64,000 nucleotides of DNA from Octopus vulgaris (lineage: Eukaryota): NCBI GenBank assembly GCA_951406725.2, contig OX597833.1:6324001-6388000 (forward strand), written 5' to 3'. The translations under genes and the position numbers were made by a program. The notes beneath the pieces were generated by a model. The model saw nothing but the letters and a program-made list of their open reading frames with translations, had not been told where the DNA came from and did not search any database. Below are positions 1,284 through 31,098 of the stretch, piece after piece; position 1 is the stretch's first letter, and each line of letters starts with the position of its first letter.

Positions 1284-1473
1284 GTCTACTCATTTATTCA
1301 TTCATACATGCATAACAATTACTTTCCTTTTTTGGTTTCCTGATGAAGGACAACTGTCTGAAACGTCAGGTCACTCTCTTTCTCCATTGAAACGTTAAAC
1401 TACCACCATATCAAACTTTATTGTTCTTGTGTTGTTATTTTAACACTGTGTTTGTGTTATTTCTTGGTTACAG

Positions 1474-1829
1474 CTATTGAAGTTGCCGTTGGAGAATATG
1501 GTATTGAGAAAGTGAACCAGTTGATTCTGGCTGTGAAGAATGGTCGCTGTGTCCGACCTCTTCCTTCTCCGGAGATTGTCATCAACGACCAGGAAAAAGC
1601 AGCGTTGATGCGGTGCGAGAAAGAAGCTATGATGGTTAATGGTACACAGACGGTGCACCACAACCAGCATGAGTATGACTGGAACCCGGAATTGGAGGAG
1701 AAGAAGAAATTAATGGAACCGGCGGCTTTGTCGAACCTATGTAATGGTTACACCAATAATCACATACCTGTGCAGGTGGACCACATTAAACCTCACATAA
1801 ACACTCCGACTATTGTCACCAAAGCAGAT
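1474..1829 (+). CDS. ABCG1: ABCG1/4-like exon, NBD-TMD linker (AIEVAVGEYG...IVTKAD)
   Basis: TTACAG acceptor, GTAAGT donor; EVAxGEYG matches ABCG1 EVASGEYG; lies within ORF 1452-1892. Confidence 0.88.
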
Positions 1830-2113
1830 GTAAGTATATGCCTTTATTGTTGCTGCTGTTGTTGTTGTTGGATGCTTGACTGGTGTTTTTAGTAGTGTTA
1901 GTCATGGTTGTACTCCTGTTCTTGTTAATGGTGGTGGTGGTGTAGTGAAAGAATTTCAGGGTAGGATCAGTTTTCTTAGTTGTAAGTAAGGTACCACAAA
2001 GTTGGATCTGTTCACTTAGTCAGAAGTGAAATACTATAAGAACAGTCCACTCAGCTGTTAATAGGTCCCTGTGTATAGGGATAGTAAGCCTAGCTACAAA
2101 TAAATCCTGCAAT

Positions 2114-6389: not shown

Positions 6390-6885
6390 TTGTCTTCATC
6401 ATCATTGTTCGACCGTGGTCGAGACAATGGAATTTACCATGCTACGCCAGACTTCACGGTCCATCATGGCATTACGGAGGTCCTGTTGCTGGATGCCTGT
6501 ATCCCTGGAGATTACATCAGGGTAGGAGAGTGTGCACCCTCTGGTATTGCGAGTAAATGGTTTCCAGAGGAGAAGAGGAGAAATTACCTCTTTTTCAGCT
6601 CTACAACAATGTCCAGCAAACTGGACTCTCCTACCTTTCACAAGAGATGACACAGGTGGTAGTTTCCCATATATTTGCATTTTGGTTGGATGGCGCTTCC
6701 ACGAGAGATTTTGAGCTCTCATAAGGAGGCGAGTGTGGGTTCCATCCAACCACCTCTCAAGCTTCTTTGATAACGTCCAGGTTTCTGAGCCATATAGTAG
6801 AATTGGTTCGACTGTGGCTTTGAATATTTCAAGTTTGAAGTCTCTACTTAGATTTGATGACCAGATCTTATTCATGTCATTACAA
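6390..6885 (-). mobile_element. 5'-truncated RTE-clade LINE, 3' end of the RT ORF
   Basis: ORF 6402-6875 with LLYGSETW, RRVQFAGHCCR and DREVWR motifs typical of the RTE C-terminus; short (TGA)n tail. Confidence 0.88.
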
Positions 6886-7086
6886 GGTGTCTTAATGTCT
6901 CATCATACCAACCTCTGCATCACACCCTCTCTCATATCGTCTTGCCTGTCTGTTGATGTGTTCCTCACATGTCCAAAATCATTATATCCTTAAACAAGAC
7001 ACTCTATTACACCACATATATCAACCATGAAATATAACACCTCTCACTGTTTCTTTTCCTCTCCCTATCACCCTTTACTCCCACAG

Positions 7087-13050: not shown

Positions 13051-13855
13051 AAAAAAATTCCTCACATCTGTTTTATTTATTTTATTTTTTTTTTTTATGT
13101 TGTCATTAACACTTTCTTTCTTTTGTTCCTTGAACAATGCATTGTATATATATAAACTGTATGTATGTCGAATGATGAAAACGAGAGCTCAACACCACAT
13201 TGGTGTTATATATATATATATTTATATACATATATCACATATATATACATATATATATGTATATATATAGATAAGTTCAAGTTGACTAGGATATCAAATT
13301 CTTGTCATAATAAGCTCATTATATCACCCAATTAGTGGAATAGGATAATAAATGAAACTAGATCCTACTCAACTTGAATTTGACAATAAAATTATCCGGT
13401 CAGTCAATGTTCTGTTCTTCTTAAACTAGTTTTAAAATAATTCTTTCTTATTTCGACCCAAGGTCAGTAATTTTGAGAGGACAGATCTCCTCTATTACAT
13501 CGACTTCAGCTATTGACCGTTGTTAGGTAGCAAGGAACTGTCAAGAAAGCTAGACAGCAGAATGTCTTGAGAGAAGAACCCTTCCCAACTCAGGCAAGCG
13601 TTTCGACCCTTAACTTCTTACACTGTAAGGAGACCAGGCCACGTCCAGGTCAACACCCTTGGGTACCCTTCTACTCATATTTTTTAACCCCTTGGACATT
13701 GGAGACTTGTGCATTTAAACCATTTGGAGAGAACATCTAGTTGGAACCCGTCTCTCTTTTGGTTCAGCTTTCAAAGTCATAAACAACAAATAACATTGTA
13801 CATTATTTACATTATTTACATTTGACGGATATTTGTCCTCATCTTGGTTGTTGTT

Positions 13856-13901
13856 AACACAACGTTTCGGCTGATATACCCTCCAGCCTTCACCAGATGT
13901 C
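13856..13901 (-). ncRNA. Second copy of the hammerhead motif with a mutated core (CTGGTGA)
   Basis: Reverse complement reads GACAT-CTGGTGA-A-GGCTGG..TCAGCC-GAAA-CGTT-GTGTT. Confidence 0.5.
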
Positions 13902-14193
13902 TTGGGGAAATTTCGAACCTGGGTTCTCACTCCTAAGGTATTTTTTGATATTATTATTATTATTATTATTATTCAGGAATCGAACTCAGAATCTTGGGGT
14001 TAGTAGCCCGCGCTGTTAACCACTACACCATATGCCCGTGAGCATACTGGTGTAGTGCTTAAGAGCACTGACTACTAACCCCAAGATTCCGAGTTCGATT
14101 CCAGGCAGTGACCTGAATAATAATAATAATAATAATAACAACAACATTGAAAAATACCTTAGGAATGCGAACCCAGGTTCGAAATTTCCCCAA

Positions 14194-14239
14194 GACACCT
14201 GAAGAAGGCTGGAGGGTATATCAGCCGAAACGTTGTGTT
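14194..14239 (+). ncRNA. Minimal type I hammerhead ribozyme motif (Penelope-like)
   Basis: GACAC-CTGAAGA-A-GGCTGG..TCAGCC-GAAA-CGTT-GTGTT: core boxes, stem I, 6-bp stem II, palindromic AACGTT in place of stem III. Confidence 0.65.
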
Positions 14240-17200
14240 AACAACAAATAAGATGATGACAAATATCCGTCTAATGTAAATAATTCCTTATCTCCTAAAT
14301 ATAGAATTGTACCAAATAACATTGGTTGTCATGGTAACCTTTATCAGTCCCAAAAGGACGAAAGGCAAAGTTTATTTTGACAGGATTTGAACTGAGAATG
14401 TAAAGAGCTGTAAAAAATACTGCTCAGCATTGTGTCTGACCTGCTGACCATTGTCAGCTTGTTGCTTTAACTAGCTCTAATGTAATAGTTTCAAATTTCG
14501 GCACAGTGCCAGCAGTTTTTGAGGGGAGGGGGGAGTTGATCCTATTGAACCCAGCGCTTGATTGGTCCCCGTTTTATTGGTCCCTAAAGGATGAAAGGCA
14601 AAGTTGAGCTTAGAACATAAAAATTAATGAAATGCTGCTAAACATTTTGTCCAGCATACTAATAATTCTGCCAAATTGCCGCCTTAACTAGCTTTGAAAT
14701 AACAGCACTATTTTAACATTTACTCAAACACACACACTCACCTATACATACATACACACATATACATATACACACATATATATATACATGCATACAGCTT
14801 TATATGTGCGTATGTATGAAATAACTATTTTTATCAATTTACCATTTCCAGTATGGTGACATATTGCTATTTCTCTTCCCTGAGTCTCTAATTTCTGTAA
14901 AGAGAGACGCAGTAATCTCATACCTTAAACCTCTTCTCTCTTCACTAACCATTTGTTTGTTGGGATTTTTAACGATCTCACCTGAAACTAATTATGTTGT
15001 TAAATGTTTTCTTTTGATCTGTGTGTGTGTGGGTGTGCATATTTTATTTGTGCGAGATTACCGGCCACTCAGATTATTACTCTTTCACTTGTTTCAGTCA
15101 TTTGACTGCGGCCATGCTGGAGCACCACCTTTAGTCGAGCAAATCGACCCCGGGACTTATTCTTTGTAAGCCCAGTACTTATTCTATCGGTCTCTTTTGC
15201 CGAACCGCTAAGTGACGGGGACGTAAACACACCAGCATCGGTTGTCAAGCAATGCTAGGGGGACAAACACAGACAGACACACACACACACACATATATAC
15301 ATATATATATACATACATATATACGACAGGCTTCTTTCAGTTTCCGTCTACCAAATCCACTCACAAGGCATTGGTCGACCCGGGGCTATAGCGGAAGACA
15401 CTTGCCCAAGATGCCACGCAGTGGGACTGAACCCGGAACCATGTGGTTGGTTAGCAAGCTACTTACCACACAGCCACTCCTGATATATGTGTAGAATATA
15501 TTAGAAAAGATAAAATAGTAAATGAATCCTTCAATGAGTAAAATCTATACATTGTCGTATATATAAATGGTTGAGTATTCCACAGACATGTACATGCCCT
15601 TAGTGTAATTTTGAGGCAGGCTTAGTATACAACAAGGCTGGACATTTTAAATTTCTAGTACAATCCATATTATAGGCTTCCTCACAGTTTCTCTCTATAT
15701 AGAGGCATGGGTTGACTTGAGGCTATGATGAAACACCCTGGCCCAAAATACTGAGCAGACATGATGATCAAACAGTTGAAGTGTTTGCTTTACTATCACC
15801 AGGTGTCACATTTGATCCTGAAGTATGGATGCCTGTAATACATACTAACTTTGCAGCCTCATTTTGCCATCCATAAGATGAACCAAGTGTGTGTGTGTCC
15901 ATGTAAAAGGCACACAGTCCACTCTGCAAAGTGGTTGGCATTAGGAAGGGCATCCAGCTGTAGAAACCATGGCAAAATTGAAAATGGGGCCTGGTGCAGC
16001 TCTGTGGCTTGCCAGCTCCGGTCAGATTGTCGAACCCATGCCAGCATGGAAATCGGACGTTAAATGATGTTGACGATGAGATATATAGATAGATAGGTAG
16101 GTAGACAGACAGGCGGCGAGGTGGCAGAAACGTTAGCACGCCGGCCGAAATGCGTAGCCATATTTTGTCTGCTGTATAAGTACCAGTTACGCACTGGGGT
16201 CGATATAATCGACTTAATCTCTTTGTCTGTCCTTGTTTGTCCCCTCTGTGTTTAGCCCCTTGTGGGTAGTAAAGAAATAGGTAGACAGACAGACATGTAT
16301 GGCTTGTAAAACTGAACATGCTTAAGGCTATCAAGCACAAGTTTTGAAGTAACTGTTATGCCTTCCCTTCTCAAAACAAAATAGACCACACACACACACA
16401 CACACACACACAGAGCTTACACCACTGAAATTACATAGACGATGTGTTACATCAGAAAATCTTCTTTTTTTTTTTTTTTTCTCATTATTTGAATTTGGAC
16501 ATAAAAACTAATTTCTTTATAAACTTCAACAACAGACAGCAATAGGATTTATGATTCCTGCGAGGAATGCATGAGCTGCTGTTTTGACATTTCAATGTTA
16601 TATTAACAAAATCTCATCCCTGTCACCTCGCAGTTCCCTTCGTGTCAGTTATTACAGCAGCTGACATCTCTGTCTTGGCTTAAATATATTTGTCTAAATA
16701 ACACAGGCAACTGTTTTTCACTTGTTTCAGTCGTTGGACTGCGGCCATGCTGGGGCACCACCTTGAAGTATTTCTAGTTGAATGAATCAGACGCCAGCAC
16801 TTATTTCGTCTTTTAAAGCCTGGTACTATTTTGTCGGTTACTTTTTGCCAAACTGCTAAGTTACGGGGACATAACTACACCGACACCGGTTGTCAAAAGA
16901 TGGTGGGAGACAAACACACGCGTATATATATGATGGGCTTCTTTCAGTTTCCATCTAACAAATCTACTAACAAAGTTTTTGTCAGTCCGAGACTATAGTA
17001 GAAGACGCTTGCCCAAGGTGCCATGCAGTGGGACTGAACCCAGAACCACGTGGTTGCAAAGCCAACTTAACCACACAGCCATGAACCCCTTATTAGTTAA
17101 ATAGACAATATTTCTTTTATCATTGCCCCATGGTGGTAAAATATTTACCATTGGAATAGATCTGAGGGAAGGTTTTTAACCACCACCTCACAAACTCCAC

Positions 17201-20200
17201 CCTCTTTACTGCATGACCTGTTAAATATTTCTAAATATACTCAGACAATTCACTGAACTGTATTAACCTGGTATATTACCGGTATTTATTACAGGAATAT
17301 ATATACTGGTCCCAGAGTAGTGACTTGTATGTAGATCACTGAAGTACTTCAGTTCCTGGTTATTGGTTCCAATACCAAAATTCAGTCTTGTAATTCTTAT
17401 TGAAGCCAGTTCTTAGACAATTCTTAGACTATCTGGAATTGCTTATTCAATTCAGATCTCTAGTTGATTACTAGGCCTGCCTGACTGGCTCCTGTGCTGG
17501 TGGCACGTAAAAAGCACCCACTACACTCACGGAGTGGTTGGTGTTAGGAAGGGTATCCAGCTGTGGAAACCTTGCCAGATCAGATTGGAGCCTGGTGCAG
17601 CCTTCTGGCTTGCCAGACCTCAGTCGAACCGTCCAACCCACGCCAGCCTGGAAAACGGACGTTAAACGATGATGATGATTATTAGAAAGACAGTGAGCAA
17701 ACAGAATTGTTATTGCAGTGGACAAAATGCTTTGTGGCATTTCATCTGGTCGTTTACATTCTGAGTTCAAGTCCTGCTGAGGTGGTTTTTGCATTTTATC
17801 CTTTCATGGTTGATAAAACAAGTATCGGTTGACCCCTGGGGGTTGATGTAATCAATTAACCACTCCCCTAAAATTTCAGGCTTTGTGCTTACTGTAGAAA
17901 GAATTATTATTATTAGAAGTTAACGGATTAGCAGGATCAGTAGAGCATCAGGAAAAGCGCTTTGTGCTATTCCTTCTAGCTTTGTTCTGAGTTCAAATCC
18001 CACCAAGGTCAGCTTTAACTTTCATTCTTCTGGGGGTCAGACACTGAGACGAGTGTTATTGACTAACCCCCTTCCCTTTCAAATTGCTGACCTTGGGCCT
18101 AAATTAAAAACTGTATCATTACAAGAGAGAAGTGGTTAATGGTGAACCAAATGTTTTGCAGTATTTTGATAGTGAAAGTGAAATTAAACATCAGAGATGC
18201 TTTGCCCCTGGCAGAAACTGTTGGAACCACCCAGGTTTTGCAAATTCTTCTAAATCTATTGCAATGCTGGGAATGGTTCCTTATTGTCAGCATGTATCTC
18301 AGGGTCACAAGTGTTTCACCCTGTAGCTTGTTGTGGGGTCAATAAAATAAAGTTACCAGTCAAGTACGAAGGTTGATGGTATCAACTCGGCCCCTCCCCT
18401 CAAAGTGCTGGCCTTGTGTCTAAATGAGGATTATCATTATTTCTATGTTTATCTTCTTTTTAGGGGATATGGTATGTGGGGCTATGTTCTGAGAAAATGT
18501 GATACAAAGGGTCATGGATGCTAAAAACAAAAGTTCAATTCCTCATTCCCTTCTACCAAATTTTTGAAATATAAATATTACTGGAAGAAATTTATAATTA
18601 GCGACAAAAATTAAACAAGATTCTTGAAATTTCAATTAATATTAACCCATTGTTTCTCAAGCAATTTTTTTTTTGTGGGGGTGCTAGTGATGGTGGGAGC
18701 AACTCATTAAGTTTAATTAAAAATATTTGTCTTAATAAGGTGGTTAGCATTAGGAAGAGCATCTGGTCATAGAAACCATGCCAAAACAGACAGTTGGAAC
18801 CTGGTGCAGCTCTCCAACCATGCCAGCTCCTATCAAACCGTCCAACCCATACCAGCTTGGAAAATGGATGTGAAATGATAATCATCCTTTCTACTATAGA
18901 TACAAGGTCTGAAATTTTTGGAGAGGGGACTAGTCGATTACATCGACCCCAGTGTTTCACTGGCACTTAATTTATCGACCCCAAAAAGATGAAAGGCAAA
19001 GTCGACCTCGGTGGAATTAGAACTCAGATCGTAATGACAGGCGAAATAGCGCTAAGCATTTCGTCCAGTGTGCTAACGATTCTACCACCTTGCCGCCTTA
19101 TGTTAAATGATAATAATAATGACTTTGTAAGGGTTTGTAATTGTGGTTTATTTTTGAATGACCTTCACAACTTGGAATGGTGATTGATCGTAAGTAATTA
19201 CCATAACTACCACAAACCCTTCAAACCCACCCCCACCCAACACCACTAGCAATCTATCTACATGGTAGCACCCTAACTGATCTCATGAAAAAATGGTTTA
19301 ATACATCAACAAGTCTCACAGTTGGTAATGTGTTGACCCTAAAACTTCAGCTAGAAAGGTCACTTAACCTACAAAGTCTTGAAGCTTTTGTCTCAAACAA
19401 TAAACATGTCAGTCTTTGTACGTGAACGCACCAGCTGTGATAGACATGTCCAACTGTCATAACTTAACTTCATCTGCTGTGAATTTATTACTTATTCTAT
19501 TGTGACTGGCTACTAACCGCTTTGATACCACCCCATCCTTGGTTCTTTAATGCAGACTTTGTTTTTAAAGTGGTCTTAAAACCTTCCGTCAATGTTTCAT
19601 ATTTATTTATTGCTAACACCAGCTTTATGATGACAAAAGTTAATGACTAAATTCTTTGTTAATTTCAAAATTAATTAAAATAAAGGCAGTGTGTTTTAAC
19701 AGAAATAACAGAAATAAAAGGAGTTAAAGTGATTGAAATTAAAAGGTCCCATCAAAATTTCACGTTGATTTCTATTCCAAACACTAACTAAGTAATGACC
19801 AAGGGATTTCACTAAATTCTTCATTAAGCTCAAAATTAATTAAAACAAAAGCATGCAAAAGCACCTTTTGAGCGTTGGGCCTCACGGAGGCAAGAACTGA
19901 AACCATTTGCCATTATGCTGGGTTTTGAGCAGTGGGCCTCACAGAGGTTATGACCAAGTCCATTTGGCATTATACTGTGCTTGAGAAGACCCACCACAGA
20001 TGTGGCAGATACTGGTGTCACACAAATGGCACGTAAAAGCACCCACTACACACTTGGAGTGGTTGGCATTAGGAAGGGCATCCAGCTGTAGAAACACTGC
20101 CAAATCAGACTGGCGTCTAGTGCAGCTTGCCAGCCCTGGTCAAACCGTCCAACCCATGCCAGCATGGACAACGGATATTAATTGACGATGATGAAAGACA

Positions 20201-23152: not shown

Positions 23153-24557
23153 GGGGTTAAATATTATCCATCAGTCTCCCAGTCACATGGTTCCAAGTTC
23201 AGTCCCACTGTGTGGAATCTTGGGTAAGTGTCTACCAAAGCCTCGTGAGTGGATTTGGTAGATGGAAACTGAAAGAAGCCTGTCATATGTATGTGTGTGT
23301 GTGTGTTTGTTCCCCCCCTCTCAAATGATGTTGGTGTGTTTACATCCCCATAACTTAGCAATTCAGCTAAAGGAATCGATAGAATAATTAGGTTTCACAA
23401 GTACTGGGGGAGTACCTTCAAGGAGGTACCCCAGCATGGCCACAGTCTAAAGACTGAAACAAGTGAAAGATGAACGATAACATGAGCCCTGTTTTAGAGT
23501 AGTGACCCCTATGTTAAAATTTAAGGAGAGGTGGCACTGAAATCGTAGTTGTAGCCAATGCTAGCGCCTCCTGAATGGCACCCGTGCCGCTGGCATGTCA
23601 GAAGCACTATCCGAGCATGGTAAATGCCAGTGTCACCTGACTGGCTCCTGTGCCAGTGGTATATTAAAAGCACCACCTACACTCTTGGAGTGGTCAGCGT
23701 TAGGAAGGGCATCCAGCTGTAGAAACCTTGCCAGGTCAGACTGGAGCCTGATGTAGCCTTCTGGTTTGCCAGTGGCCAGCCTCATAGTCAAATTGTCCAA
23801 CCCATGCCAGCATGGAAAGTGGACGTTAAACGATGATGATGATGATGATTACCAAAAGGAAAAAAAATAATAAGTTCTTGTATTTAGAAATTCTGTTGGA
23901 CCTTGCTACATCATCTGTCATGTTTCTAGTTCTCCTTCCTACACACAGACATTTGTGTCAACTCGGGCCCTGTCTTACATTACTAAAGAAAGTGAGGACT
24001 TCTAGAAGGAAATTATATTGGACCCTGGCACATCATTGGCTGTATTTCTGCTTGCTGACAACCCAAGGCCTGACTCATTTTAGCCCTAAATCTTTTTCTA
24101 GAAGTGTTTACAAAATACCATCACCAGTGCTTTCTAAGTGGCACCAGAAACTGTGCCTTTTATGAGGCACCAGCACGTTTTCATCTGGCACCGCAGTTTT
24201 AGGATCTCAATTCTGTTGTGGTGGTCAGGTTTTCTCAAGTACAGCAATGCACCACATATCTTGGTCTGCTGTCTTCGTCTTCGTAAGGTCCAAGACTTTG
24301 AGACCAGCCTTCAAAACTTCATCTGATGTCTTCCTGGGACCCCCTCTCCCACAACTTCCCCTCCACTAGAAATTATAAGCTGTGTCGAAGAGACACAATT
24401 AACAACTTAAATGGTTTCACTGATGAGGTTCGAAGAAACACCACAAGGTATTTTGTGTGATGTTCTAATGAATGAATATCTATTTCTTTACTGCCCACAA
24501 GGGGCTAAACACAGAGCGGACAAACAAGGACAGACAAACGGATGAGGAGGATGATGA

Positions 24558-24620
24558 TTATTATTATTATTATTATTACTGTTATTATTATTATAATTAT
24601 TATTATTATTATTATTATTA

Positions 24621-24658
<38 letters not shown>
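24558..24658. repeat. (TAT)n microsatellite; other (TA)n, (TG)n, (AAT)n and (CAT)n runs occur throughout
   Basis: Direct reading. Confidence 0.95.
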
Positions 24659-24660
<2 letters not shown>

Positions 24661-26699
24661 GGTGGTGGCAAGCTGGCATAATTGTTAGCACGCTGGGCAG
24701 AAATGCTTGGCGGCATTTTGTCAGTTCAATTTTGCCTTTCATCCTTTCAGGGTTGATAAAATAAGTACCAACTGAGCCCCAGGGGGTCAGGTAATGGACT
24801 TACACTTCCCTCCACCACCAACTCTTGCTGGCCTTGAGCCAAAATTTGGAACCAATTTAAATCTATTCAGTTTCAATCGGTCCTTTGTCTCCATCGTCTT
24901 TATCACTAAAATGTTTGGTATTTTAAAACCTTTTTTGTTTGCTTTAAAGTACACCAGTCTCCTTATCCAGTCTGCTTAGTTCCGTCATATATCGTGACAT
25001 CTGTCTTTTAACTATCCTGTGAGGTACCAAGTGTTGTTTCAGTCTAGTATTACCACTTAACGTCACAATTCCAAAAATGTATAACTTCCTGGATGTGAAA
25101 GAATTTTGGAGGAAACGTGTGTAAAGTAGGTTCTATGACACTCCGCCCTCTCTCAATTTAAGAGTCAACCAGTTCCTGTTAGGAATGGTTTTGTTGTGTT
25201 AGTTAACTAACAACTTTGCCAACCACTGAGAGTAATTAATTAATTAAGGCTGTGAATCGGTAGAGTTATTAGAGCACAGAGTCTGAATAAATATCTTGAA
25301 GGATACTGTCTAACACTCATGAGTTCAAATCCTGCCAAGGCCCACTTTGTGCCTTTCATTTTTTCAAGGGTTAAAAAGAAAGAAAGAAAAAACATCCCAC
25401 TTCAGGATGGTGTAAAACATCAGCCCAGATGCCTTGTGGTATTCATTCTGACACTGTGCATTCTGAGTTCAAATCCTGCCATAGTCTATTTGGGTGATGG
25501 ACTTAATCCTTCACCCAGTTTAATATCACCACCAGGCTCCTAATCACCTTTAGTGGGGGGAGGCCACTATGTTGCAAACATCTAGGCTGGATTTTCTGTA
25601 TTGGGATACTTTCCCCACTCCTTTCCTTCAGCCTCGGGCCCTATGAAGTTTTATGGGCCCTGCCCTTCACTTTCAGTTAAAAGACGCAAAAAAAAAACAA
25701 GTAATGTGACTCACCTAACAGACGTGGTTCTGGGGTTAGGAAGATTACTTCATAAGCATGTGGTCCTGGGTTCAATACCTTGGTAGATGGGGACTGGGAA
25801 AAGTCCATCACAGATATATATATATATATGTACTCTTTTCCTTGTTTCAGTCACTTGACTACGACCATGCTGGAGCACCGCCTTTAGTTGAACAAATCAA
25901 CCCCAGAACTTATTCTTTGTAAGCTTAGTACTTATTCCATTGGTGTCTTTTGCCGAACTGCTAAGTTACGGGGATGTAAACACACCAACGTCGGTTGTCA
26001 AGCGATGGTGGAGGGACACAAACACAAACATGGTTAAAAGATACAACAAAAAAAAAATAAAAAACAAGTAACAAGACTCACCTAACAAATACTCTCTCTC
26101 TCTTTTACTCTCTTTTACTTGTTTCAGTCATTTGACTGCGGCCATGCTGGAGCACCGCCTTTAGGCGAGCAACTCGACCCCAGCACTTATTCTTTGTAAG
26201 CCCAGTACTTATTCTATCGGCTTCTTTTGCTGAACCGCTAAGTGACAGGGACGTAAACACACCAGCATCGGTTGTCAAGCAATGCTAGGGGGACAAACAC
26301 AGATACACAAACATATACACACCCACATACATATATATACACATATATACGACAGGCCTCTTTCAGTTTCCGTCTACCAAATCCACTCACAAGGCATTGG
26401 TCGGCCCGGGGCTATAGCAGAAGACACTTGCCCAAGATGCCACGCAGTGGGACTGAACCCGGTACCATGTGGTTGGTTAGCAAGCTACTTACCACACAGC
26501 CACTCCTGCGACAAATATATTGATACAGCAGGTTTCTTTCGGTTTCCGTCTACCAAATCCATTCACAAGGCTTGGGTGGGTTAAGGGTTATAGTAGAAGA
26601 CACTTGCTCATGGTGCCACACAGTGGGACTGAACCCGGAACCATATGGTTGGGAAGCAAGCTTCTTACCACACAGCCACGCCTATATACACATACATGT

Positions 26700-28225
26700 A
26701 TATATATGTGAATGTGTGTGTGTGTACGAGTGTGCAACAGAGATGACAAGTATGAGTGTGTGCATGCGTGTGTATGAATGTGTGAGTGCGTTTGTGTGCA
26801 TGTGTACTCGTGTGTGAGCGCGTATGTGCATGTAAATGAGCATGAGTAAGTGTTCATGCATGTGTGTGCATGCATGTGTGTGTGTGTGTATGAGTGTGTG
26901 CATGCATGTGTGTGTGTGTGTGTATGAGTGTGTGAGCGCGTATGTGCATGTAAATGAGCATGAGTAAGTGTTCATGCATGTGTGTGTGTGTGTATGAGTG
27001 TGTGCATGCATGTGTGTGCGTGTGTGTATTAGTGTGTGCATGCATGTGTGTGTGTGTGTGTATGTATGAGTGTGTGCATGCATGTGTGTGCATGTGTGTA
27101 TTAGTGTGTGCATGCATGTGTGTGTGTGTGTGTATTAGTGTGTGCATGCATGTGTGTGTGTGTGTGTATTAGTGTGTGCATGCATGTGTGTGCGTGTGTG
27201 TATTAGTGTGTGCATGCATGTGTGTGCGTGTGTGTATGAGTGTGTGCATGCATGTGTGTGTGTGTGTGTATGAGTGTGTGCATGCATGTGTGTGTGTGTG
27301 TGTGTGTGTGTATTAGTGTGTGCATGCATGTGTGTGTGTGTGTGTGTATTAGTGTGTGCATGCATGTGTGTGTGTGTGTGTATGAGTGTGTGCATGCATG
27401 TGTGTGTGTGTGTGTATTAGTGTGTGCATGCATGTGTGTGTGTGTGTGTGTATTAGTGTGTGCATGCATGTGTGTGTGTGTGTGTATGAGTGTGTGCATG
27501 CATGTGTGTGTGTGTGTATTAGTGTGTGCATGCATGTGTGTGTGCGTGTATGTATTAGTGTGTGCATGCATGTGTGTGTGCGTGTGTGTATTAGTGTGTG
27601 CATGCATGTGTGTGTGTGTGTGTGTATGAGTGTGTGCATGCATGTGTGTGTGTGTGTATTAGTGTGTGCATGCATGTGTGTGTGTGTGTGTGTATTAGTG
27701 TGTGCATGCATGTGTGTGTGTGTGTGTATTAGTGTGTGCATGCATGTGTGTGTGTGTGTATGAGTGTGTGCATGCATGTGTGTGCGTGTGTGTATTAGTG
27801 TGTGCATGCATGTGTGTGCGTGTGTGTATTAGTGTGTGCATGCATGTGTGTGTGCGTGTGTGTATTAGTGTGTGCATGCATGTGTGTGTGTGTGTGTATG
27901 AGTGTGTGCATGCATGTGTGTGTGTGTATTAGTGTGTGCATGCATGTGTGTGTGTGTGTGTGTATTAGTGTGTGCATGCATGTGTGTGTGTGTGTGTATG
28001 AGTGTGTGCATGCATGTGTGTGTGTGTGTGTATTAGTGTGTGCATGCATGTGTGTGTGTGTGTATTAGTGTGTGCATGCATGTGTGTGTGTGTGTGTGTA
28101 TGAGTGTGTGCATGCATGTGTGTGTGTGTGTGTGTATTAGTGTGTGCATGCATGTGTGTGTGTGTGTGTGTATTAGTGTGTGCATGCATGTGTGTGTGTG
28201 TGTATGAGTGTGTGCAAGCATGTGT
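26700..28225. repeat. 1.5-kb compound satellite TAT(T/G)AGTGTGTGCATGCA(TG)n
   Basis: Roughly 40 units of about 28-38 bp with variable TG length. Confidence 0.95.
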
Positions 28226-29238
28226 GAATGTCTTGACATCATACACTAATTGTAAACAAACGTCACTCTCACACAAGTGGTATTGTTCCTTCACAAAGTT
28301 CCATGAAAACATGTCCGGCCACTGAGCAGCTTGTGGTCAATGAAGTGTGTGAGAGTGTGTGGTGGAGAATTACCTTACCTGGAAACAAGGTGAGGGTTAA
28401 ACAACAGGAAGTGAATCTGCCCATAGAAAATCTGCATCAATAAATTTCATCATTAATATGATGACGGCAGCAAGCTGACAGAATTGTTAGCATGACAGAC
28501 AAGACAAAACGCTGAGCAGCATTTTGTGGGTCTTTATGTTCCAAGTTCAAATTCCACTGAGGTCGACTTTACTTTTCATCCTTTTGGGGGTCAATAAAAC
28601 CAAGTACTTGTTGAACACTGGGAGTGATGTCATCAACTGGCGCCCTTCCCTGCAAATGCTGGCCTTGTGCTAAAAGTTGAAATCAATATGATGACGATGG
28701 GGATGATTGTTTCTTCCATGGTAGTCATGGCAAATAAGGCGGTGAGCTGCCAGAATCGTTAGCACGCCGGGTGAAATGCGTAGCCGTATTTCGTCTGCCG
28801 TTACGTTCTGAGTTCAAATTCCGGCAAGGTTGACTTTGCCTTTCATCCTTTCGGGGTCGCTAAATTAAGTACCAGTTATGCACTGGGGTCGATGTAATCA
28901 ACTTAATCCGTTTGTCTGTCCTTGTTTGTTCTCTCTGTGTTTAGCCCCTAGTGGGTAGTAAAGAAATAGGTAGTCATGGCAACTGATCTTTCCATTCCTG
29001 ATACTCTTCGTCAGTCATAAATGTTACACTTCCTTATTCTTGGACTCCCTGGTAACAGGAAGCAGAATTCGAACCGAAAACACACAGAACTGGAATAGAC
29101 ACCACAAAGCATCAAGTCCGACACTCTACCATTTTTACTAATCCACCATCCTGGACTAGTTACTAGATTTTATCGACCCCTGATAGAATAAATAACAATG
29201 TTGATCTTGGCAGAATTTGAACCCAGAATACAGAAAGG

Positions 29239-29545
29239 TAGAGGCGCAATGACTCAGTGGTTAGGGCAGTGGACTCACAGTTAGGGGATCGTGGTTTTGA
29301 TTCCCAGACCGGGCGTTGTGTGTGTTTATTGAGCGAAAACACCTAAAGTTCCACGAGGCTCTGGCAGGGGGTGGTGGCGACCCCTGTTGTACTCTTTCGC
29401 CCCAACTTTCTCTCACTCTTTCTTCCTGTTTCTTGAGTAACACTGTGATGGACTGGCGTCCCTTCCAGCTGGGGGGAACACATATGCTACAGAAACCGGG
29501 CCCATGAGCCTAGCTAGGCTTGAAAAGGGGCGCATAAATAAAAAT
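29239..29545 (+). mobile_element. SINE family D, tail type 3 (second copy at about 35165-35480 on -)
   Basis: Same head; tail contains GATGGACTGGCGTCCC...CTACAGAAACCGG. Confidence 0.85.
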
Positions 29546-31098
29546 GCAGAAAGTCACAACAAATACTGCATGGTTCTTTGGCCAAATGTCTTCTTTCGTA
29601 AAACTTGGTTCCATCAATGTCTTGTATGTAGAATTAGTATTTGGAAATTATATAGAAGTCCATTGTCATCATCATCATCATCATCATTTAGTGTCTGCTT
29701 TCCATGCTGGCATGGGTTGGACGGTTTGACAGAAGCTGGCCAGCTGGCTCCAATTATCTGTTTTGGGATGGTTTCTCCAGCTGGATGTCTTTCCTAATGC
29801 CAGCCACTTACAGAGTTTCCTGGGTGCTTTTTACATGGTGCATATGTGTGTGTGTGTGTTGTGTGCGTATCCTTGAAAATGTTCACATTTTGTGACTTCA
29901 TACAAAAAATCTTGAGCAGAAAAAAAAAAAAAGCAACTTTTTGACATTCCTTGCAAATGAATTGTCCTGCAGCTCAGCACTTTGGCAGACAAGTGGAATC
30001 ATAAAACCGTCCGTTGCATGAGAAACAACTAAGGTTTAGTGACTGGAAGAGCATCCAGCTGTGCAATAATGTCTCAACATACATTTGTCTAACTCATGCC
30101 AGCATGGAAAAAAAAAAGTGAAAAAGAAAAAAATGAATGTAGAATGAATCATCATCATTTAACGTCCATTTTCCATGCTGGCATGGGTTGGACAAACCAG
30201 AGACCTGCATCAGGCTCCAATTGTCCATTTTAGTATCGTTTCTACAGCTGGATGCCCTTCCTAATGCCAACCACTTTACAGAGTGAACCAAGACTACCAG
30301 GTCCTCCTGATGTGGCACCTTTTTACATGGTTCCTTTTATGTGGCGCCAATGAAAGATATTGTCTAAAATTCTGCTAATTCAATGTGGACTGTCCTGTAG
30401 TGGTCAGTGTTAACAACCAGTACATAACTAACACCTAACATGAAGCGTCATTTCTGCTACAGTCAACATTTTACTGTGGGCCGTCCAATAGGGTTAATGT
30501 CCTGTATTGTGGTGGTCAGTGTTAATAACTTGTACAAAACACCAACAAATTTGGGACATACCGTTTCCACTAAGGTCAAGTTTACTGTCGACTGGACAGA
30601 AGGGGTCAGAATCTTTTGTTTTGTTTTGTTTTACTCATTTCAGTCATGAAACTGCGGTCATGCTGGGGCATTTCCTTCAGGAATTTTAGTCAAATGAATT
30701 AACCTCAGTACTAACTTTGCTTTAAGCCTGATACTTATTCTATCGGTTTCTTTTGCTGAACCTCTGAGTCATGGGGATGTAAACACACCGACACTGGTTG
30801 TTAAGCAGTGGTACAGGACAAACAAACACTCATATATATGTACAATGGGCTTCTTTCAGTTTCCATCTACCAAACCCACTCACACAGCTTTGGTTGGCCC
30901 AAGGCTATAGAAGAAGACACTAGCCAAAGGTGCCACACAGTGGGACTGAACCCAGAACCGCGTGGTTGAGAAGCAAACTTCTTACCACACAGGAGACACA
31001 CTGCTTCTGCTGTAGCCTGTACCATAATGGTCAGTGTTAATATCCTGTACAGCAACACCTAACATAACGATACAAGCTTTTCCAGTGATGGTCAGCAG

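What the first reader, a model, noticed from the sequence alone, without database searches (positions are those of the whole stretch)
13787..14324. Palindromic tRNA-promoter/hammerhead-ribozyme retroelement inserted as one unit
Seen: an inverted repeat with arms of about 240 bp around an axis at 14038-14039. Reading outward, each arm has a tRNA-like head (A-box TGGTGTAGTG, B-box GAGTTCGATTCC), an (AAT)n spacer and a minimal hammerhead motif (CTGANGA-A, stem GGCTGG/TCAGCC, GAAA, palindromic AACGTT, closing GACAC/GTGTT). The right arm has an extra unpaired tail of about 30 nt. A perfect 12-bp duplication (CAAATAACATTG) brackets the whole palindrome, so it arrived in one event. Known: Penelope-like elements carry minimal hammerheads with palindromic stem III thought to act as dimers, and often insert with inverted ends and a short tail; Schistosoma Sm-alpha repeats combine a Pol III promoter with a hammerhead. 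Inference: a non-coding, Pol III-driven, self-processing SINE/retrozyme that borrows Penelope machinery, with two back-to-back promoters. No T4 terminator precedes the ribozyme in the right arm, so self-cleavage could set the RNA 3' end. I do not know of a description of this architecture in cephalopods, but cannot check.
Basis: partly seen in the sequence, partly recalled or inferred. Interest (0 to 1): 0.85.

Follow-up and report, generated by a model that had tools for sequence, protein, structure and literature searches.

The report
Penelope retrotransposon headed by tRNA promoter
The palindrome is two back-to-back copies of the front end of a protein-coding Penelope-like jumping gene; that front end begins with a tRNA-like sequence, which likely lets the enzyme that normally makes only short non-coding RNAs (Pol III) transcribe the whole coding element.

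Summary
The palindrome, its 12-bp target-site duplication (TSD), the tRNA-like heads and the one-sided tail are real. The left hammerhead core is mutated. It is not a separate SINE. Each arm is the terminal repeat (pLTR) of an autonomous Penelope/Poseidon element in the same genome: it follows the GIY-YIG stop in 29 of 30 loci, and its 3' 150 nt (hammerhead and tail) encode the first ~50 codons of the RT-endonuclease ORF. There are roughly 14,000 insertions; 62 of 90 sampled are inverted pairs. Inverted pLTRs, tails and minimal hammerheads are known Penelope traits. The unusual part is the promoter end. The pLTR opens with tRNA-derived A/B boxes, 44 of 61 arms reaching that edge stop there, and genome-wide counts fall five-fold across it. 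No TTTT terminator is shared along the 2.6-kb sense strand (at most 4 of 42 copies at any site), whereas all 71 related ORFs from other hosts carry TTTT. A Pol III-transcribed coding retrotransposon is therefore plausible (~50%) but untested; a TATA-like word at -34 keeps Pol II alive. Novelty: new variant of a known kind.

The parts
13787..13798 (.). left target-site duplication (12 bp)
   Evidence: TSD >=10 bp in 33 of 51 two-arm loci vs 3 of 51 mismatched controls
13799..14037 (-). tail-less arm: inverted pLTR copy ending at the inner 3' end of the family
13856..13901 (-). minimal type-I hammerhead with mutated core (CTGGTGA)
13976..14037 (-). tRNA-like head of the left arm (A-box 14030-14021, B-box 13987-13976; 11 nt after the B-box missing)
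14038..14039 (.). 2-nt centre of the head-to-head junction (CCC-GT-GAG here; CCC-RY-GGG in the family)
14040..14114 (+). tRNA-like head of the right arm (A-box 14048, B-box 14091); 5' edge of the pLTR and likely RNA start
14115..14147 (+). (AAT)n/(AAC)n spacer, length variable among copies
14165..14312 (+). first ~49 codons of the RT-endonuclease ORF (one in-frame stop in this copy); contains hammerhead and tail
14194..14239 (+). minimal type-I hammerhead with intact core; predicted cut after 14234
14282..14312 (+). one-sided Penelope tail; in full-length copies it runs on into the ORF
14313..14324 (.). right target-site duplication

Best explanation
The palindrome is one insertion of two head-to-head copies of the terminal repeat (pLTR) of an autonomous Penelope/Poseidon retrotransposon, and that repeat begins with tRNA-derived A/B boxes that likely start the element's RNA, possibly through Pol III. 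Shown: the ~2.6-kb unit runs head, (AAT)n, ATG, hammerhead, tail, rest of the RT-GIY-YIG ORF, then the next head; short copies pile up at the head's 5' edge; insertions carry ~12-bp TSDs and one tail. Inferred: (1) the RNA starts at about -6 to +4 of the head; (2) as shown in vitro for the Anolis element PAc, the protein nicks both target strands and starts reverse transcription internally at two sites that bracket the tail, so starting in the 5' pLTR copies only the 240-275-nt leader; (3) two cDNAs from the same source join at their 3' ends, and when both are complete they would anneal through the near-palindrome GCCC-AC-GGGC, giving the full hairpin with a random centre; (4) the short copies are mostly dead-end by-products; (5) the polymerase is Pol III (about 50%).
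For: Head directly after the endonuclease 3' end in 29 of 30 loci, 1 of them partial. Arm joined to the ORF start in 9 of 30 loci picked by an N-terminal ORF segment, none of the other 21 showing a direct arm there; the frame reads through hammerhead and tail and matches the N-terminus of another PLE protein, P0008, at 39% over 198 aa, E 6e-36. RT: RVT_1 E 1e-9; 37% over 569 aa to an Anolis PLE protein. 44 of 61 arms reaching the head start end within 28 nt: 0.026 stops/nt vs 0.004 inside the head and 0.002 upstream. Exact 21-mers: 4006 in the head vs 806 and 842 upstream. L192 and L200 begin at +4 and -2. TSD in 33 of 51 vs 3 of 51. Centre towards the tail GT 12, AC 9, AT 10, other 1. Arms share subfamily letters: 6 discordant of 58 vs 22 expected. 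No subfamily difference between 73 ORF-attached and 68 short arms. For Pol III: no TTTT site in more than 4 of 42 copies; 0.40 TTTT/kb in 14 copies vs median 3.2/kb in 50 T-matched relatives, and 0 of 71 relatives free of TTTT.
Against: No RNA start or polymerase data: all runs were contigs. Within-element TTTT tests are weak: P 0.03 for L207 but 0.16, 0.63 and 0.93 for three other copies, and some other long ORFs in the same loci are also low at 0-1.4/kb. The 71 relatives are not independent. A TATA-like ATTTATAAG lies ~34 nt before the head in 54 of 82 copies, so Pol II would give the same 5' edge. L183 and L185 carry endonuclease sequence upstream of the leader, so some templates were read-through or tandem. 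17 of 61 arms continue upstream. Summed contig depth showed no clear step at the head (the tool says depth is no copy number). No intact ORF was found. The hairpin at the edge could itself stop RT.
Confidence: 0.8

Rival explanations
1. Promoter rival: the element kept a Pol II TATA promoter in the upstream copy's 3' end, and the tRNA-like piece is a passenger (an old SINE head) sitting at the start site.
For: ATTTATAAG ~34 nt upstream of the head in 54 of 82 copies. Relatives L349 and L358 show TATAAATA ~30 nt before an Inr-like word ahead of their hammerheads (read by eye; Inr motif recalled). PMC10886601 (passages) states that non-LTR elements use Pol II and that Pol III limits RNA length. 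Capped mRNA is the normal route to translation.
Against: The TATA-like word contains the ORF stop codon and may be incidental. It does not explain the lack of TTTT relative to 71 relatives. The A/B boxes show no subfamily-level change other than CpG decay.
Confidence: 0.35
2. The pile-up at the head edge is an RT stop or fold-back at the GCCC-AC-GGGC hairpin in longer read-through RNA, not an RNA start.
For: The element's own sequence is an imperfect hairpin at this point. Several arms run 6-26 nt past the axis in palindromic form.
Against: The natural stem is short. Fold-back from a tail-started cDNA would fix the centre as AC towards the tail, but GT is as common (12 vs 9).
Confidence: 0.15
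3. One reading: an independent non-coding palindromic SINE/retrozyme with two Pol III promoters that borrows a Penelope partner and is trimmed by its hammerhead.
For: Short copies outnumber ORF-linked ones about 7-fold. 308 exact full junctions. Schistosoma Pol III hammerhead SINEs exist (PMC6765202, passages). Some short copies could be re-transcribed.
Against: The whole arm lies inside the autonomous element. No separate variants, no fixed centre polarity, variable arm truncation, and inserts extend past the cut.
Confidence: 0.07
4. A MITE or fold-back DNA transposon with terminal inverted repeats.
For: Long inverted repeat flanked by a TSD.
Against: One-sided tail, variable TSD length (about 9-17 bp), 5' truncations and continuity with an RT ORF.
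Confidence: 0.01

Closest known systems
Penelope/Poseidon PLEs, especially PAc of Anolis carolinensis (PMC11167929; PMC8557442)
   Same: RT followed by C-terminal GIY-YIG; pLTRs; inverted 5'-truncated copy; 30-40-nt one-sided tail that belongs to the ORF start; hammerhead overlapping the first codons; 37% identity to an 836-aa Anolis PLE protein (identity with PAc itself not verified).
   Different: The pLTR starts with tRNA-derived A/B boxes and an (AAT)n spacer, and the sense strand lacks shared TTTT. No A+B box was found after 44 related ORFs (the test found only 4 of 12 own copies, so it is weak).
Minimal type-I hammerheads of metazoan PLEs (PMC4209133)
   Same: 5-bp stem I, 6-bp stem II, unpaired base after A9, G10.1-C11.1 pair, palindromic 15.2-16.2. 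That paper notes motif pairs 100-700 bp apart on opposite strands in Schistosoma.
   Different: No structural difference. Cleavage was not tested here.
Schistosoma Sm-alpha / Sj-alpha SINE-like repeats (PMC6765202, passages)
   Same: Pol III-type promoter next to a hammerhead.
   Different: Those are non-coding tandem repeats processed by the ribozyme. Here the promoter-like head fronts a coding element, and the inserts are uncut at the hammerhead.
TRIMp3: Cassandra, Helenus, Ajax (PMC10886601, passages)
   Same: Small-RNA-derived Pol III promoter inside a terminal repeat.
   Different: Those are non-autonomous LTR elements of up to 1.3 kb. This is an autonomous ~2.6-kb Penelope-like element.
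Non-LTR retrozymes (10.64898/2026.07.22.740005, first fifth read)
   Same: Hammerhead-bearing non-coding derivatives of pLTRs.
   Different: They are head-to-tail tandem arrays. These are head-to-head pairs with TSDs.
Octopus SINE 'Twin' (Albertin et al. 2015; recalled, paper not held)
   Same: Possibly the same repeat under a SINE label, going by name and host only.
   Different: Could not be compared. Repbase/Dfam and the octopus repeat libraries were not available.

Membership tests
EN+ Penelope-like element, Penelope/Poseidon clade | single ORF with RT then C-terminal GIY-YIG endonuclease | tested here: met
   RVT_1 E 1e-9; 37% over 569 aa to an Anolis PLE protein through the endonuclease. 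Pfam gave no GIY-YIG hit on the decayed piece.
EN+ Penelope-like element, Penelope/Poseidon clade | pLTRs flanking the ORF, direct or inverted | tested here: met
EN+ Penelope-like element, Penelope/Poseidon clade | 30-40-nt tail at one end, derived from the ORF start | tested here: met
EN+ Penelope-like element, Penelope/Poseidon clade | hammerhead in the pLTR | tested here: met
   core intact in 150 of 249 instances; motif only, activity untested
EN+ Penelope-like element, Penelope/Poseidon clade | no Zn-finger-like linker (unlike Neptune/Nematis); EN not N-terminal (unlike Naiad) | tested here: met
   read by eye; no tree with labelled clade references was built
tRNA-derived SINE | tRNA-derived head with A and B boxes | tested here: met
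   ARAGORN at -ps80 called 14 of 104 heads vs 0 of 104 shuffled; best match tRNA-Arg(TCG), z 8.6, among 25 distinct host tRNA sequences from few isotypes; no Rfam hit
tRNA-derived SINE | non-coding lineage separate from its autonomous partner, sharing only a 3' tail | tested here: not met
   whole arm lies inside the autonomous element; same variants in both groups
tRNA-derived SINE | transcribed by Pol III | not testable with these tools
   only indirect: 5'-edge pile-up and TTTT depletion
Non-LTR retrozyme | head-to-tail tandem monomers, each with a hammerhead | tested here: not met
   62 of 90 tail-picked loci are inverted pairs; direct tandems are rare
Non-LTR retrozyme | self-cleavage and circular RNA | not testable with these tools
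   no raw RNA reads were offered

The most novel reading that the evidence does not exclude
An autonomous, protein-coding retrotransposon that captured a tRNA-derived internal promoter and is transcribed end to end (~2.6 kb) by RNA polymerase III, having purged TTTT terminators from its ORF. Its uncapped RNA is translated, and its 5' leader is pasted pairwise as thousands of long hairpins that look like a SINE family.
Probability: 0.45. Interest if true: 0.87.

Novelty: new variant of a known kind. Interest (0 to 1): 0.62.

Why it matters
Pol III is held to serve only short non-coding retroelements (PMC10886601). A Pol III-made RT/endonuclease mRNA would be an exception and a natural test of cap-independent translation. 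An internal promoter would also free a PLE from needing tandem copies to be expressed. The ~14,000 short insertions keep both cDNA ends, so they test the still-open PLE integration mechanism in vivo: two start sites, ~12-bp stagger, same-source arms, random centre. Thousands of long hairpins could feed A-to-I hyper-editing; PMC5625713 links frog hyper-editing to a palindromic repeat and reports octopus as equally rich in dsRNA-forming loci. That link was not tested here. Annotation pipelines would likely file these copies as tRNA SINEs.

Tried and rejected
Rfam gave no tRNA or hammerhead hit. My idea that the two arms come from independent RNAs in a mixed pool was rejected: arms are concordant at 5 of 5 sites. 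Same RNA, same source locus, same time wave or later gene conversion all remain possible. Evidence for in vivo hammerhead cleavage was inconclusive: 6 arm starts at r188-193 around the predicted cut (r190/191) vs ~1.4 expected, but two are doubtful calls and the site is a self-complementary GTTAAC. No in-genome control PLE family was found: all 30 loci taken from the top of 58 matches were this family. The first metagenome scan found nothing; the alignment scan gave 80 loci, of which 71 were used for the TTTT count and 9 left out by hand (short, interrupted or near-duplicate matches). The A/B-box pattern was faulty and was redone. RNA-guess runs hold the element as contigs, which shows neither starts, strand nor expression level. 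Three look-ups of earlier scan findings returned nothing. Nine literature searches listed no paper whose title or abstract start describes a tRNA-headed or Pol III PLE; subscription papers, Repbase and Albertin 2015 with its supplement could not be seen.

Full report
OBSERVATION. The window holds an inverted repeat centred on 14038/14039, with arms 85.6% identical over 243 nt. It is flanked by a perfect 12-bp duplication and has a ~31-nt tail on the right only. Each arm has A- and B-box words, an (AAT)n run and a hammerhead-shaped segment. Only the right core is intact; the left reads CTGGTGA. Contigs from two other DNA runs span the junctions, and a second species (organism B) holds the family.

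FAMILY. Exact words in G000 number 308 for the 26-nt junction, 4006 for a head 21-mer, 4734 for a hammerhead 27-mer and 5159 for a tail 26-mer, with all reversed controls at 0. Dividing by the exact-match rate in copies picked by other words gives roughly 14,000 tails, 24,000-30,000 hammerheads and 15,000-19,000 heads. Of 90 tail-picked loci (the first 30 listed plus 60 of the next 62, all on contig C1), 62 have an inverted second arm, and the arms are truncated independently at their 5' ends. Of those, 51 had a second arm complete at its 3' end; 33 of them show a TSD of 10 bp or more, mostly 11-13, versus 3 of 51 mismatched controls. The full palindrome is the case where both arms are complete.

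THE PARTNER IS THE ELEMENT ITSELF. Some arms continue upstream of the head into coding sequence. In 30 loci picked by that segment, the head follows in 29 (one partial; three loci are near-identical duplicates including the query). Further upstream lies an RT (RVT_1, E 1e-9), and a 569-aa open frame is 37% identical to an Anolis PLE protein through the endonuclease. At the ORF's other end, 9 of 30 loci show the same arm running into the ORF. The frame starts after the (AAT)n run and reads through hammerhead and tail. It aligns with the N-terminus of another PLE protein, P0008 (39%, 198 aa, E 6e-36), including the hammerhead-encoded residues. Near-full copies give a unit of about 2.6 kb. No intact ORF was seen. 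PAc of Anolis is built the same way: the hammerhead overlaps the first codons, the tail lies between two internal RT start sites, both strands are nicked and extended, and cleavage is not needed for insertion (PMC11167929, first half of text read). Inverted truncated copies and one-sided tails are standard for PLEs (PMC8557442 passages; PMC8969392 passages). The ribozyme fits the minimal type-I form (PMC4209133, first half read); its core is intact in 150 of 249 instances, and the only non-CpG core variant at subfamily level is at the free position N7.

NOT A SEPARATE SINE. Seventy-three ORF-attached and 68 short arms do not differ at the subfamily sites (P 0.1-0.4); a few columns differed at P<0.02 through extra gaps or changes in the ORF-attached group, none fixed. 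The junction centre, read towards the tail, is GT in 12, AC in 9, AT in 10 and other in 1; 38 junctions had no tail within reach. A master palindrome would fix it. The two arms of one insertion mostly share subfamily letters (6 discordant of 58 vs 22 expected at N7; same trend at four more sites), so both come from one source. The window's own arms differ at N7.

THE 5' EDGE. Of 61 arms that reach the head's start, 44 end within -19..+8: 0.026 per nt, against 0.004 inside the head and 0.002 upstream. This is an automated tally: ends inside palindromic junctions are imprecise, and a few arms split by long insertions were scored at the AAT run. Genome-wide, 21-mer counts fall from 4006 in the head to 806 just upstream and stay at 842 about 160 nt further up, about 7-fold after calibration. 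Two copies with the whole leader start at +4 and -2 after unrelated DNA; two others have endonuclease sequence upstream, joined across a deletion. The head is tRNA-like: 14 of 104 are called at a lowered ARAGORN threshold vs 0 of 104 shuffled, and the best host match is Arg(TCG) at z 8.6 in a small set of tRNAs. The isotype is uncertain, and Rfam does not call it.

POL III? A Pol III transcript must lack TTTT runs (established knowledge). In 42 copies no TTTT site is shared by more than 4, while 13 TTT sites are shared (one of these covered by a single copy). Against synonymous shuffles this is weak (P 0.03 for one copy; 0.16-0.93 for three others), and some other long ORFs in these loci are also low. 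Against kin it is stronger: 14 copies give 0.40 per kb (12 observed vs 60.6 expected from composition), whereas 71 related ORFs from other hosts all contain TTTT, with median 3.75 per kb, or 3.2 in the 50 with matching T content; the lowest was 0.43 (relatives not independent, 9 of 80 left out). No A+B box follows 44 related ORFs, but that test found only 4 of 12 own copies. Against Pol III: ATTTATAAG, which contains the stop codon, lies ~34 nt before the head in 54 of 82 copies, and two relatives show TATA boxes at the matching place. No RNA data could decide. I put Pol III at about one half.

MECHANISM. Shown: anatomy, TSDs, 5'-edge pile-up, same-source arms, random centre. Inferred: the RNA starts at the head; the protein nicks both strands ~12 bp apart and primes at two internal sites; copying from the 5' pLTR yields only the leader; two cDNAs join at their 3' ends, complete ones through GCCC-AC-GGGC with two G.T mismatches that resolve either way. 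The short copies lack the ORF sequence beyond the tail that PAc needs, so they are likely dead ends.

LITERATURE. Nine searches listed no description of a tRNA-headed PLE. PMC10886601 (passages) describes Pol III promoters only in non-autonomous elements and says autonomous partners must use Pol II. PMC6765202 (passages) covers the Schistosoma hammerhead SINEs. PMC13282606 (first third, plus a term search of its supplement) reports many Penelope-like and unclassified SINE families in O. vulgaris; its supplement had no hit for hammerhead, palindrome or Twin. Passages of PMC8967140, PMC3531059, PMC9115989, PMC6962438 and PMC5625713 and the first fifth of bioRxiv 2026.07.22.740005 did not describe it. 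The octopus SINE 'Twin' is recalled only; that paper and its supplement were not held, so the repeat may already be named.

VERDICT. A real, very abundant feature whose palindrome, tail and ribozyme are known Penelope behaviour. The new element is the tRNA-derived 5' end of an autonomous PLE, with a fair chance of Pol III transcription of a coding RNA. New variant of a known kind; interest 0.62.

Noticed in passing
window 15072-15200: A different repeat with summed contig depth of about 50 million vs 54 for single-copy flank in run X1; likely the dominant SINE of this genome.
   Followed up: no
window 14340-14372 and 14573-14605: Two 33-nt copies (88%) within another repeat family right of the insertion.
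   Followed up: no
window 13575-13640 (- strand): Segment ending in TAAGGGTCGAAACG that resembles a decayed hammerhead of another family; it failed my descriptor.
   Followed up: partly
window 6405-6899 (-): 165-aa open frame resembling the C-terminal part of a LINE reverse transcriptase, judged by eye.
   Followed up: no
window 1362-1889 (+): 176-aa open frame whose later part may include a host exon.
   Followed up: no
L125/L136, L137, L138 (G000 C1, 7.9-9.1 Mb): Three 95-99% identical copies including flanks: a recent segmental duplication or assembly duplicate.
   Followed up: no
L342, L338, L352, L373: Related PLE ORFs from other hosts with few TTTT (0.4-0.8 per kb). No A/B box after L342, whose pLTR is T-rich; the other three lack downstream sequence.
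   Followed up: partly
L023 1350-1470: The (AAT)n spacer is replaced by a long (AAG)n run in one arm; spacer length and unit vary widely among copies.
   Followed up: no
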